From: a virus
Lineage: Duplodnaviria > Heunggongvirae > Uroviricota > Caudoviricetes
Direction: 5' to 3' (one strand)
Virus record (IMG/VR): IMGVR_UViG_2609459864_000006
DNA length: 14,764 nt
In this document: piece after piece, positions 6,001 through 9,000 of the stretch
Numbering within the stretch: position 1 is the first letter of the stretch
Layout of the letters: each line of letters begins with the position of its first letter
Position numbers: made by a program

Positions 6001-9000
6001 ACAGGGTTCGCAGTACCGGCGCATACGGAAACCGGCGAGCCTTTCGGCTCCCCTGCCCAGCCCACCATAATTCTGGCGTGCGTGAGCGCGGACGATAAAA
6101 AAGACGCTGGCGCGTCATATATCGCCGTATGCAATTCCGGGCTGCGACCCCCGGCACCCGCTTTATAAGGTGCAGAGACAGTGTAACGTCCCGAAATTGC
6201 AGAATCAATATTTGGTCTTGAAATGATCATATAGCTGCTGATATCTTTAGAACTGTTCTTGGATGTTTCGGAGCCGTTTTATGCGAAACAGCTCCCCGTT
6301 ATTGATGTTGAGTGAGCCGGGTTACTCCCGGCTTTTTTTCACCGCTGCCAACCAATAACCTGAAATAACCCCATTTTCGGGTGATACCAGCGAGTCCCTC
6401 GCGGTTCTGCTTCCTCCATAACCCGATAAAAAGCAGCCATAAACGGTTCCACAGCAACAATTGCGCGACGTGACAACAATCCGTCCGGCGTCATGAACTC
6501 ATGTGTGTCTGTAGGAATTTGATAGGCGTTCACCAGATTGCGGCATTTATCATCTGACAAACCGGTTTTTGCTTTCAGTTGGCGATATCCGGCATAGCCC
6601 TCACGAATAGTGCCCTTTTTAATTTGCTCGACTGTTTCAGCAACGTGGCTGACTTTTTCTTCCACCTGAGTGATCCGTTTCTGTTGGCGAACGGCTTCAA
6701 GAGCCATCGCGGCAACCATTTCGATTTCGCTCATTGGCTTACGGATCTGTTCTTCCAGTTCGCGCCAGCGATCTACCAGGCGAGCTGTGAATTCAGGACA
6801 GAGCTGTGCGACGACAATGATGCTGTCGCGCTTACCTTGTTCACCTTCGAATACATACGCGCTAGAAAATCGGCGAGGCCCAAGTGATTGTTTATTCTCA
6901 ATTTCCACAGTCTGTGGAAATTGGATGATTCCCTTTTTAGCCAGTGTTTCAATAGTTCTCTTAACACTATCTGGTCGGCTTCCCACCAGCTCTGCGATCT
7001 CAACGCTGGTCATGGATGCTTTGCCGTTAAAAATTGCGGTGTTCATTGTTGGTCTCCTGTGGGCTTGTCATCTTCTGTATTCGCTAGACTTGGGTTTGTA
7101 TATGGAATGCTCGGATCCAGATGACAAAGAATGGCAACATCCTCCGGAACACCTCGCGTTTTCCACTTTCCAACACCTTGACTGCCACGAGGCCTTCCTT
7201 TCTTTGGGAACCTGCGACCAATAGCGGCATTGGTTTTAAATTGAATTTTTAATATTTCATAAAGGGTCATTCTTTAGTCTCACACCAGATACTTTGTTAT
7301 CCAACGATGTTAACCACAGGAATCCAAAGTATCAAGAAATTCTGTTACTTTAGTATCAACAACCATGAGAGGAGAAGAAAAATGAAGTCTTTAGGTGAAC
7401 GTCTCATCAACGCACGGCAAAAAGCTGGGTTAACACAAGATGCGTTGGCTAAAAAAGCTGGGATCACCAGAGTTGCAATCAGTAAAGCCGAGCAAGGCCT
7501 TACAAAAAGTTTCAACGGTGACACCCTTTTTAAAGTTGCAGCTGCACTGCGGTGTTCACCGCAGTGGCTTCAGAACGGAGATGAAAAAGATAAGCATTGG
7601 GAAAATAATGTTAAGAGCTGCCCACAGAGAGACACAGCACACTCTTACCCTGTAATTAACTGGGTTCAGGCAGGATTATTCGCAACTTCTGGTGATGACT
7701 ACAACATGTATGATCAGGATAATTGGAGGCATTCTGTAAAATACGCTGGTGAGAGGGGGTTCTGGCTGGAAGTGCACGGAGACTCAATGACTTCGCCCGT
7801 AGGAATAACATTTCCTGAAGGAATGTCGATCCTTGTCAACCCAGATAAAGAAGTTTTTTCAGGGTGTTACGTCATCGCCAGAAAAAAATCCACCAATGAA
7901 GCAACATTCAAAAAATATATTTCTGACATGGGAAAGGCGTTTCTAAAGCCCCTTAATCCACAATATCCAATCATAGAAATGGACAATGATTGCGAAATAG
8001 TAGGTGTTGTGGTTGATGCCAGGTGGGATATTTTCTGACCAGACACAAAACACAAAAAGAAACCAAAGTATCAAAAATCACTTGCCACACCTTGATACCT
8101 TAGTTACCATAAAACAAAGTTCGTAACTGAGGTATCATCTCATGATCAATAAAGCTACAACTCTTGACTGTCTCGAAGAACTGAAAAACCTCGGCAGCCT
8201 CATTACACTAATAGCAAAAGCAACACCTGATGCTACGCTCTCTAGCGATATAGAGTCATGCGCAGGACTGGCATGGGATATGACAAATAGCATATCCAGA
8301 AAGCTATCGTCAGCAATGCTTTTACAGAATAAAAATTCTGCAATCAACAACCGTCTTCGCACCCAACGCGAAGCCTGCGGCTTAACAACCGCCGAACTCG
8401 CCAGGCTGCTCGATCTCGATGAAGAAATTATCATCCAGTGGGAGAGCGGAGAGTATGAACCAACTATCAGTATGCTTATCCCACTGGCAAATATTCTTGG
8501 CTGCGATCCGATGTGGCTGTTAACTGGTAAACCAACAGGTGGGGATACTTGCGCATGAAAAACTGTGATGCTTACCATATTTGTCTCATTGGTGAATTGC
8601 TTGATTTCATACAAAAAAGCACTGCGCGCAATAATAAAAATATAACATATGGTGATCTGGTAATAATTTCAGAGGATATAAAGAGCATCGCTCTTAAATT
8701 CAAGAGCGACGCGAGTATTGATGACGCTATTTACGCTTATCTTGCGAAAATAATTGACGGATCCAAAATCCAGCCTCTGGATGAACCTCGTCAGTGAAAA
8801 ACTCCTTTGATGAAGATGAGAACTGCTTCATAAACTTTACTTTATCTTCAGGTGAAACTACCTGACGAATTAATGCGGAGATAGCAACTTTGTGCCAAAT
8901 TAATTCTTTTTTGAGTTCTGAAATCTCTTTTTCGAGTTGCTCTGCGTTAATCATTTATCCTCCATTGAGAGCTGAATTGAAAATGGGGACCAACACGCGG

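What the first reader, a model, noticed from the sequence alone, without database searches (positions are those of the whole stretch)
7283..8139. Operator-like GTATCA-core repeats flank the repressor gene on both sides
An exact 12-mer CCAAAGTATCAA occurs upstream (7324-7335) and downstream (8063-8074) of the cI-like gene. Additional direct and inverted copies of the GTATCA/TGATAC core cluster in both intergenic regions (7288-7296 inverted, 7350-7358, 8092-8098 inverted, 8131-8137). Three sites sit in the roughly 110-bp divergent region, mimicking OR1-3, and several sit before the early-left operon, mimicking OL. This defines a likely immunity specificity for the element.
Basis: seen in the sequence. 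Interest (0 to 1): 0.45.

Follow-up and report, generated by a model that had tools for sequence, protein, structure and literature searches.

The report
Repressor operator sites of a phiP27-like prophage
The repeated GTATCA motifs are real: six 14-18 bp binding sites for the prophage's lambda-type repressor, three on each side of its gene over the two early promoters, which makes this an ordinary lambda-style immunity switch with a recognition sequence I did not find described.

Summary
The motifs resolve into six sites of one type: a 14-bp pseudo-palindrome GWWAC-N4-GTATC, or 18 bp with flanks (TTGATAC-N4-GTATCAA).

- Three sites lie in the 111-bp divergent region: 7288-7301, 7320-7333 and 7344-7357.
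- Three lie between the cI-like gene and the next operon: 8059-8072, 8094-8107 and 8123-8136.
- A weight matrix built from the six sites finds nothing else above 12 bits in the 14.8-kb window.
- The sites overlap two independently predicted sigma-70 promoters: leftward TTGATA-17-TAACAT and rightward TTGCCA-17-TACCAT.
- In ten E. coli/phiP27/Stx1-phage relatives, half-site bases vary at 4 of 60 positions, against 60 of 130 elsewhere in the intergenic DNA.
- In prophages of Morganella, Photorhabdus, Serratia fonticola, Dryocola/Cedecea and two unnamed read-archive sources, cI is only 53-74% identical but keeps the recognition helix TRVAISKAE[Q/L]G. The same sites sit there at the same spacings.
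- Relatives with a different helix have GTTTC or GTTTA half-sites in the same architecture.

The window is a phiP27-type prophage, and the closest characterised repressor is P22 c2. The operator reading is well supported, but binding itself was not tested. It is a new member of a well-known kind, of modest interest.

The parts
7382..8038 (+). cI-like immunity repressor gene (218 aa): N-terminal HTH with recognition helix TRVAISKAEQG, C-terminal S24 self-cleaving domain. RBS GAGGAG at 7368-7373.
   Evidence: Pfam HTH_3 (1.7e-14) and Peptidase_S24 (3.2e-22). Lambda cI 3BDN E = 8.7e-34, with the Ala-Gly site (VQAGLF), GDSM Ser and FKK Lys aligned. 44% identical to P22 c2. 97.7% identical to phiP27 L11.
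7043..7270 (-). Cro-position gene (75 aa), the first gene of the leftward early operon. Its predicted fold is the all-alpha Cro fold.
7288..7301 (.). Operator site C (GATACTTTGTTATC), in the OR1-like position. It covers about +1 to +13 of the leftward promoter. The consensus half is on the left here and on the right in relatives.
   Evidence: 17.2 bits. Stx1-phage version is GACACTTAAGTATC and other genera have GAAACTATTGTATC at the same place.
7307..7335 (-). Predicted PR-like promoter for the Cro-position operon: -35 TTGATA (7335-7330), 17-bp spacer, -10 TAACAT (7312-7307). Start inferred near 7300.
   Evidence: Consensus scan. The -35 is the GTATCAA of site A. A TAnnnT hexamer is kept at the same position in all ten aligned loci.
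7320..7333 (+). Operator site A (GAATCCAAAGTATC, followed by AA), in the OR2-like position. It overlaps the -35 and spacer of the leftward promoter and is the best conserved site.
   Evidence: 21.0 bits. GAATCCAAAGTATCAA is exact in 7 of the 10 aligned loci, including Morganella, and differs by one base (two in Photorhabdus L050) in the other three, which are the Stx1-phage group (L002), E. coli 100416 and Photorhabdus L050.
7344..7357 (+). Operator site B (GTTACTTTAGTATC), in the OR3-like position nearest cI. It is 24 bp centre to centre from A.
   Evidence: 16.4 bits. The 10-bp gap to A is invariant in all ten loci. Most other genera have GCTACTTTAGTTTC.
8059..8072 (+). Operator site D (GAAACCAAAGTATC, followed by AA), upstream of the -35 of the rightward promoter.
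   Evidence: 21.5 bits. A GTATCAA site is found about 50 bp after the cI stop in all relatives.
8082..8110 (+). Predicted PL-like promoter for the operon downstream of cI: -35 TTGCCA (8082-8087), 17-bp spacer, -10 TACCAT (8105-8110). Start inferred near 8117.
   Evidence: Consensus scan. TTGCCA/TTGCGA/TTGACA and a TACnnT hexamer sit at identical spacing in all ten loci.
8094..8107 (-). Operator site E (top strand GATACCTTAGTTAC), in inverted orientation. It fills the spacer and the first three bases of the -10 of the rightward promoter.
   Evidence: 22.6 bits, the best hit in the window. The 14-bp core is invariant in the ten E. coli-group sequences. GATACTNNNGTTAC in all other genera.
8123..8136 (+). 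Operator site F (GTAACTGAGGTATC), at about +7 to +20 of the rightward transcript. It overlaps the Shine-Dalgarno GAGG of the gene at 8142-8558.
   Evidence: 18.4 bits. Present in the E. coli group, Photorhabdus and Morganella, and absent in L046-L049.
8142..8558 (+). First gene of the rightward (PL-like) operon: a 138-aa protein with a C-terminal HTH_3 domain and a CII-like PHROG match. It is the target of the repression, not a component of the operator set.
   Evidence: Pfam HTH_3 2.6e-11. phrog_4739 and phrog_4836, 'CII-like regulator', 6e-40.

Best explanation
The window carries the immunity region of a phiP27-type lambdoid prophage of E. coli. The cI-like repressor (7382-8038) most likely binds as a dimer to six 14-bp pseudo-palindromic operators, GWWAC-N4-GTATC, or 18 bp with flanks (TTGATAC-N4-GTATCAA). 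One half-site, GTATC, is invariant and the other is degenerate.

Three sites (C, A, B) lie in the 111-bp region between cI and the divergent Cro-position gene. A covers the -35 of the leftward early promoter and C covers its start, so occupancy shuts off the Cro-position/Rha/Ash operon. B, next to cI, is placed to autoregulate cI.

Three sites (D, E, F) follow cI. E fills the spacer and -10 of the rightward early promoter and F sits just after its start, over the ribosome-binding site of the first gene. Occupancy there silences the operon that runs to xis and int.

The S24 domain keeps the Ala-Gly site and the Ser/Lys dyad, so RecA-stimulated self-cleavage should lift repression.

What is shown: the sites, their clustering, their conservation, their co-variation with the recognition helix, and the overlap with predicted promoters. 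What is inferred: binding itself, promoter activity, cooperativity between sites, and any OR-OL looping.
For: 1. The six sites are the only weight-matrix hits of 16 bits or more in 14.8 kb; the next best scores 11.6. No hit of 14 bits or more lies outside the two regions in about 70 kb of five related records. A random 5-Mb sequence gives 57 single hits and no pairs within 100 bp.
2. The promoter scan found TTGATA-17-TAACAT (7335-7307, minus strand) and TTGCCA-17-TACCAT (8082-8110, plus strand) without reference to the sites. Both are positionally conserved in ten diverged loci.
3. In ten sequences from E. coli prophages, phiP27 and an Stx1 phage, 4 of 60 half-site positions vary, against 60 of 130 other intergenic positions (Fisher P = 2e-8). 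Central N4 positions vary at 7 of 24. In site C a loss in one half (GATAC to GACAC) comes with a gain in the other (TTATC to GTATC).
4. Out-of-sample test: in L046-L051, where cI is 53-74% identical and the helix TRVAISKAE[Q/L]G is kept, the top 5-6 matrix hits per 4.7-kb locus all flank cI. The C-18 bp-A-10 bp-B architecture is fixed, and the downstream order D, -35 hexamer, 6 bp, E is kept, with a D-to-(-35) gap of about 9-11 bp.
5. Co-variation: L053 (helix SRVTISKIELR) has GTTTC/ATTTC halves. L004 (SRMAISKIEMG) has TAAAC-N4-GTTTA. L052 (SRVAISKAELG) has mixed GTGTC/GTTTC/GTATC. All three keep the same C/A/B architecture (and my reading of those sequences).
6. The N-terminal domain aligns with the solved operator-binding domains of P22 c2 (E = 1.7e-9) and 434 Cro (1.1e-9). 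The C-terminal domain aligns with that of lambda cI (4e-31).
7. The divergent gene has a Cro fold.
Against: - No binding, footprint or transcript data exist here, and the promoters are consensus matches only.
- The cI maintenance promoter was not found. The best candidate in relatives (TTGTAT-17-TAGAAT) is degraded to AGGAAT in the window, and it would itself be covered by sites C and A.
- The site spacings (32, 24, 35 and 29 bp centre to centre) differ from lambda's, so lambda-style pairwise cooperativity is assumed rather than shown.
- The Cro-position protein barely changes between relatives with different operators. That departs from the lambda picture in which Cro and cI read the same sites.
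- Site F is missing in four of the relatives.
Confidence: 0.85

Rival explanations
1. The sites are read mainly by another regulator of the element rather than by the cI-like protein. Candidates are the Cro-position protein, the 138-aa HTH protein encoded at 8142-8558, and the Rha/Ash proteins.
For: Several other DNA-binding proteins are encoded next to the sites. The Cro-position protein has a Cro fold, and lambdoid Cro proteins do bind the same operators as cI.
Against: The variable base of the half-site tracks the cI recognition helix. It does not track the Cro-position protein, which stays 70-74% identical with an almost unchanged putative recognition helix where the operators differ. The 138-aa HTH gene is replaced by unrelated genes in relatives L046, L047, L049 and L050, which keep sites D and E. 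Shared use by the Cro protein is compatible with the main explanation.
Confidence: 0.08
2. The repeats are promoter elements: several copies of the -35-like hexamer TTGATA, or leftovers of duplicated promoter DNA, rather than protein-binding operators.
For: GTATCAA is the reverse complement of TTGATAC, which contains a 5-of-6 match to the -35 consensus. At site A it is the predicted -35 of the leftward promoter.
Against: Only one of the four GTATCAA copies has a -10 at the right distance (and my inspection). The conserved unit is 14 bp and includes a second half-site 9 bp away, while the central 4 bp are free to vary. Sites D and B face away from any gene start. Sites C and F lack the AA that would complete a TTGATA hexamer.
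Confidence: 0.03
3. The E/F pair (8093-8137) works chiefly as an RNA hairpin. In cI read-through transcripts it would hide the ribosome-binding site of the next gene. Its likeness to the other four sites would then be secondary.
For: It forms a 15-bp stem at -20 kcal/mol with z = -5.4, burying GAGG at 8129-8132. A transcript starting at about 8117 has no such fold. The E. coli/phiP27 group lacks the terminator that other genera have after cI. The one substitution seen in the stem (8130 A to G) keeps a U-G pair.
Against: E is conserved in relatives that have no F and do have a terminator, so E is kept for another reason. E and F both fit the operator matrix as well as the other sites do. Any two oppositely oriented copies of an operator form such a stem automatically.
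Confidence: 0.04

Closest known systems
Phage lambda immunity region (cI, Cro, OR1-3, OL1-3, PR/PRM/PL)
   Same: A repressor with an HTH N-terminal domain and an S24 C-terminal domain homologous to lambda cI (E = 9e-34). The repressor gene is flanked by two operator clusters of three imperfect palindromes each. One cluster lies in a divergent region shared with a Cro-fold gene, the other over the promoter of the operon that ends with xis and int. Each site has a consensus and a non-consensus half (the lambda half-site asymmetry is from my own knowledge).
   Different: The operators are 14/18 bp with a 4-bp non-conserved centre, where lambda's are 17 bp (own knowledge), and the half-site sequence is different. 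The gaps between sites are 18 and 10 bp in OR and 21 and 15 bp in OL. Only cI lies between the two clusters, which are about 770 bp apart, with no rex genes. The first PL gene is an HTH protein, not N. The Cro homologue is all-alpha. PRM was not identified.
Salmonella phage P22 c2 repressor and its operators (PDB 2R1J, 3JXB-D, 1ADR)
   Same: P22 c2 is the closest characterised homologue: 44% identical over the full length, N-terminal domain E = 1.7e-9, with helix 3 starting xVAIS in both. From my own knowledge, P22 operators are 18 bp with two 7-bp halves around 4 central bases that the protein does not contact. That matches the 7-N4-7 geometry and the variable N4 seen here.
   Different: The half-site is TTGATAC here, against roughly ATTTAAG in P22 (own knowledge). 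The helix-3 residues differ (TRVAISKAEQG against SNVAISQWERS). The immunities are therefore distinct.
Stx2e phage phiP27 immunity region (L10-L12; NC_003356)
   Same: The same immunity type: cI is 97.7% identical and the region is 95.5% identical in DNA. Five of the six sites are identical and the sixth differs in one central base. The gene order on the right, down to xis and int, is the same.
   Different: phiP27 is a complete Stx2e-converting phage with a replication module. The prophage in the window has lost that module. In the annotations I could read, L11 is called 'putative lambda repressor' and no operators are annotated. The 2002 genome paper was not available to me.
Phage 434 repressor and Cro with 14-bp operators
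   Same: 434 Cro is the best PDB sequence match to the N-terminal domain (E = 1.1e-9). The operator core is 14 bp, with outer contacted bases and a non-contacted centre that tunes affinity (own knowledge).
   Different: 434 operators are ACAA-N6-TTGT (own knowledge); here the layout is 5-N4-5 with a different sequence. The 434 repressor aligns only weakly (E = 3e-5).

Membership tests
Lambdoid cI-type immunity switch (repressor plus OR/OL operator clusters) | Repressor with an N-terminal Cro/C1-type HTH and a C-terminal LexA-like S24 self-cleavage domain, with an Ala-Gly site and a Ser/Lys dyad | tested here: met
   Pfam HTH_3 and Peptidase_S24. The alignment to lambda cI shows VQAG, GDSM and FKK conserved. 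S135 and K177 are invariant in 21 homologues.
Lambdoid cI-type immunity switch (repressor plus OR/OL operator clusters) | Several imperfectly palindromic sites sharing one consensus, clustered on both sides of the repressor gene | tested here: met
   Six sites, three on each side. They are the only matrix hits of 16 bits or more in the window.
Lambdoid cI-type immunity switch (repressor plus OR/OL operator clusters) | The sites overlap the -35, -10 or start of the two early promoters | tested here: inconclusive
   The sites overlap two consensus-predicted promoters that are positionally conserved in ten loci. No transcript starts are known.
Lambdoid cI-type immunity switch (repressor plus OR/OL operator clusters) | A divergently transcribed Cro-family gene shares the OR region | tested here: met
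   [not shown]
Lambdoid cI-type immunity switch (repressor plus OR/OL operator clusters) | Operator sequence co-varies with the repressor's recognition helix (immunity specificity) | tested here: met
   GTATC is kept wherever helix 3 is TRVAISKAE[Q/L]G, down to 53% identity. Where helix 3 differs the half-site is GTTTC or GTTTA.
Lambdoid cI-type immunity switch (repressor plus OR/OL operator clusters) | The repressor physically binds the sites and confers superinfection immunity | not testable with these tools
   This needs EMSA or footprinting and an immunity assay.
Lambdoid cI-type immunity switch (repressor plus OR/OL operator clusters) | A repressor-activated maintenance promoter (PRM) next to an operator | tested here: inconclusive
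   No convincing plus-strand promoter was found upstream of cI in the window. The candidate TTGTAT-17-TAGAAT occurs only in relatives.
phiP27 immunity group | A near-identical repressor and identical operator half-sites, predicting homoimmunity | tested here: met
   cI is 97.7% identical. All GTATC halves are identical and there is one central-base difference in site C.

The most novel reading that the evidence does not exclude
The switch may depart from the lambda paradigm in its second regulator. The Cro-fold protein keeps 70-74% identity and an almost invariant putative recognition helix (SQ[G/A]VGKWK) across prophages whose cI helices and operator half-sites differ (GTATC, GTTTC, GTTTA). 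It may therefore read only the constant AC-N4-GT core and act across immunity groups, or it may not use these operators at all. In addition, in the terminator-less E. coli/phiP27 lineage the E/F operator pair could double as an RNA hairpin that blocks translation of the first PL gene on cI read-through transcripts.
Probability: 0.2. Interest if true: 0.5.

Novelty: new member of a known kind. Interest (0 to 1): 0.25.

Why it matters
The result gives a concrete operator consensus, GWWAC-N4-GTATC, and a site map for the phiP27-type immunity group.
- This group is carried by about 200 of 5,426 complete E. coli genomes, ST131 strains among them, and by Stx1a, Stx2a and Stx2e converting phages.
- The consensus lets homo- and heteroimmunity among these prophages be predicted from sequence.
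- It gives ready-made targets for reporter or EMSA work on the induction of Shiga-toxin phages of this type.
- The relatives form a natural series in which one base of the half-site changes along with a few helix-3 residues. That makes a small, tidy system for studying repressor-operator specificity.

It does not change how such switches are understood.

Tried and rejected
- Literature: searches for phiP27 operators or immunity and for the motif together with operator, repressor and phage terms found nothing relevant. The phiP27 genome paper (PMC127862) is not held, so I cannot exclude that it mentions operators.
- IMG/VR scan for the 14-mer ATCCAAAGTATCAA: 120 or more hits, of which only 6 lie next to a cI orthologue. 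A 14-mer is too short for a collection of that size, so this neither supports nor refutes the specificity of the motif.
- The DNA search with CCAAAGTATCAA at up to 2 mismatches is not significant as such (3 found, 1.7 expected). The 12-mer is the wrong unit.
- The genome-contig scan with cI found only relatives of 51% identity or less. Closer ones came from the protein search.
- PRM: the scan found no plus-strand promoter between 7271 and 7381, and manual candidates are weak.
- The reading of the repeats as -35 hexamers was considered and rejected (see the rival explanations).
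Full report
**What the window is.** The segment 6900-8700 is 95.5% identical to the Stx2e phage phiP27 and 86% identical to a group of Stx1a- and Stx2a-converting phages. It occurs in 343 of 5,426 complete E. coli genomes, always on the chromosome. The immunity core 7230-8180 occurs in 204 genomes, 130 of them at 99% identity or more, ST131 strains included.

The gene order matches phiP27:
- a minus-strand early operon, starting with a 75-aa gene at 7270-7043, then Rha and Ash genes;
- a plus-strand operon that starts at 8142 and runs to excisionase and integrase at the right end of the window.

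This is the lambda layout seen from the other strand. The repressor lies between an OR-like divergent region (7271-7381, 111 bp) and an OL-like region (8039-8141, 103 bp).

**The observation.** All the coordinates are correct. In a de novo k-mer count, GTATCAA is the commonest 7-mer of the two intergenic regions, with 4 copies there and none in the other 14.5 kb. GTATC/GATAC occurs 6 times where 0.25 is expected (P = 3e-7).

**What the unit is.** Lining up the copies shows a 14-bp pseudo-palindrome with one constant half and one degenerate half. Cores are written with the GTATC half on the right:

| Site | Coordinates | Core | Orientation |
|---|---|---|---|
| C | 7288-7301 | GATAA caaa GTATC | inverted |
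| A | 7320-7333 | GAATC caaa GTATC | direct |
| B | 7344-7357 | GTTAC ttta GTATC | direct |
| D | 8059-8072 | GAAAC caaa GTATC | direct |
| E | 8094-8107 | GTAAC taag GTATC | inverted |
| F | 8123-8136 | GTAAC tgag GTATC | direct |

- Four of the six cores are followed by AA, which gives an 18-bp form TTGATAC-N4-GTATCAA.
- GWWWCNNNNGTATC has 5 matches against 0.13 expected. The perfect palindrome GATACNNNNGTATC at up to 2 mismatches recovers all six.
- A weight matrix from the six sites scores them at 16.4-22.6 bits; the next best hit in the window is 11.6.
- In about 70 kb of five related records nothing outside the two regions reaches 14 bits. A random 5-Mb sequence gives 57 isolated hits and no pairs within 100 bp.

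**Relation to promoters.** The consensus scan was run without reference to the sites. It reports only two intergenic promoters.
- On the minus strand, TTGATA-17-TAACAT (7335-7307) faces the 75-aa gene.
- On the plus strand, TTGCCA-17-TACCAT (8082-8110) faces the gene at 8142.
- Site A supplies the -35 of the first promoter, and site C covers its inferred start near 7300.
- Site E fills the spacer and the first bases of the -10 of the second promoter. Site F lies just downstream of its inferred start near 8117, over the Shine-Dalgarno GAGG. Site D lies just upstream of its -35.
- Site B is the one nearest cI, 24 bp centre to centre from A.

**Conservation among close relatives.** I aligned ten sequences from E. 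coli prophages, phiP27 and an Stx1 phage.

| Position class | Variable positions |
|---|---|
| Half-site | 4 of 60 |
| Central N4 | 7 of 24 |
| Other intergenic | 60 of 130 |
| cI third codon positions | 70 of 219 |

- Half-sites against other intergenic positions gives Fisher P = 2e-8.
- The four half-site changes all lie in degenerate halves, or form a swap in site C. GATAC...TTATC in the window becomes GACAC...GTATC in the Stx1 group, which is what a two-fold symmetric site predicts.
- The flanking AA is less constrained, as strain OkiPb01708 shows.

**Distant relatives as an out-of-sample test.** The protein search gave cI homologues of 86-50% identity. Their alignment shows helix 3 (TRVAISKAEQG, or ...AELG) unchanged down to 53% identity in Morganella, Providencia, Photorhabdus, Xenorhabdus, Serratia fonticola and Dryocola/Cedecea. 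I fetched six such loci, L046-L051.
- With the matrix built only from the window, the top 5-6 hits per 4.7-kb locus all flank cI, at about -93, -61 and -37 upstream and +50, +85 and sometimes +108 downstream.
- Anchored alignments show the spacing C-18 bp-A-10 bp-B kept exactly. Downstream, the order D, -35 hexamer, 6 bp, E is kept, with a D-to-(-35) gap of about 9-11 bp. The sequence between the sites is otherwise unrelated.
- Site F is present only in the E. coli group, Photorhabdus and Morganella.

**Co-variation.** Relatives with a different helix 3 keep the architecture but change the half-site.

| Locus | Source | Helix 3 | Half-sites |
|---|---|---|---|
| L053 | E. coli | SRVTISKIELR | GACACGTTTGTTTC / GAAACCTAGATTTC / GCTATATTTGTTTC |
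| L004 | Serratia sp. Ag1 | SRMAISKIEMG | TAAACTAAAGTTTA and related sites |
| L052 | Yersinia ruckeri | SRVAISKAELG | a mixture of GTGTC, GTTTC and GTATC |

**Comparison with known systems.**
- The C-terminal domain is homologous to that of lambda cI (E = 4e-31), with the cleavage site and catalytic residues aligned.
- The N-terminal domain aligns with 434 Cro and P22 c2, whose operator complexes are solved.
- P22 c2 is the closest characterised full-length relative, at 44% identity.
- From my own knowledge, P22 operators are 18 bp with four central non-contacted bases. That is the same 7-N4-7 geometry as here, but the half-site and helix-3 residues differ.
- I found no description of these operators in the searchable literature.

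**The second regulator.** The 75-aa gene has no Pfam match and only an unknown-function PHROG.
- Unlike cI, this protein hardly changes between relatives with different operators. Its core stays 70-74% identical where the cI N-terminal domain drops to 44-55%.
- Whether it reads only the constant AC-N4-GT core is open.

**Unresolved points.**
- PRM was not located. A TTGTAT-17-TAGAAT candidate in relatives overlaps sites C and A, but in the window it is degraded to AGGAAT.
- E and F form a 15-bp inverted repeat. It would fold at -20 kcal/mol (z = -5.4) in a read-through cI transcript and hide the ribosome-binding site of the next gene.
- The E. coli/phiP27 lineage lacks the terminator that the other genera have after cI. 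This may be only a by-product of two opposed operators.

**Verdict.** It is a new member of a very well-known kind, the operators of a lambdoid cI-type repressor. It is useful for annotating and working on phiP27-type and Stx prophages but is not surprising. I give 0.85 confidence to the operator model and an interest of 0.25.

Noticed in passing
window 5667-6230 (minus strand), junction near 5761: This ORF is a chimera of an Ash-family N-terminus (residues 16-106) and the last ~26 residues of a DUF968 protein. Relatives carry a whole replication module (HTH protein, DnaC-like loader, DnaB-type helicase) between these two genes. No complete E. coli genome spans the junction: 0 places cover 80% or more of 3800-6400, and the best hits stop at about 5761. 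The prophage in the window has apparently lost its replication genes while keeping an intact immunity region.
   Followed up: partly
[not shown]
   Followed up: partly
window 8093-8137: Operators E and F form a 15-bp inverted repeat. As RNA it folds at -20 kcal/mol (z = -5.4) and buries the Shine-Dalgarno sequence of the gene at 8142. A transcript starting at the predicted PL start lacks the 5' arm.
   Followed up: partly
window 8039-8058; L046-L051 just after the cI stop: Relatives in other genera have a clear intrinsic terminator (a GC-rich hairpin such as GCCGGnTATCCGGC, then a T run) directly after cI. The E. coli/phiP27/Stx1 group has no such structure there, and this stretch is also an indel hot-spot, with 6-7 bp deletions in several strains.
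   Followed up: no
window 8142-8558 (plus strand): The first gene of the PL-like operon encodes a 138-aa protein with a C-terminal HTH_3 domain and a 'CII-like regulator' PHROG match, not an N-type antiterminator. Its HTH part is mosaic: about 150 bp recur at 92-100% identity in unrelated phages, where one copy is annotated as DicA-like (H12-H16).
   Followed up: no
window 580-2433 (minus strand), 3934-5076 (plus strand), 5266-5664 (minus strand): The left part of the window carries lambdoid late-region cargo. It includes a 617-aa DUF1737 + SASA esterase + DUF6645 protein that resembles the NanS-p esterases of Stx phages (the resemblance is from my own knowledge), a prophage porin annotated as OmpC-like, and a QuuD-type antiterminator.
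   Followed up: no
window 7545-7566: A perfect 10-bp inverted repeat, CACTGCGGTG/CACCGCAGTG, lies inside the cI coding sequence at the end of the HTH domain (I17). Its significance is unknown and it may be coincidental.
   Followed up: no
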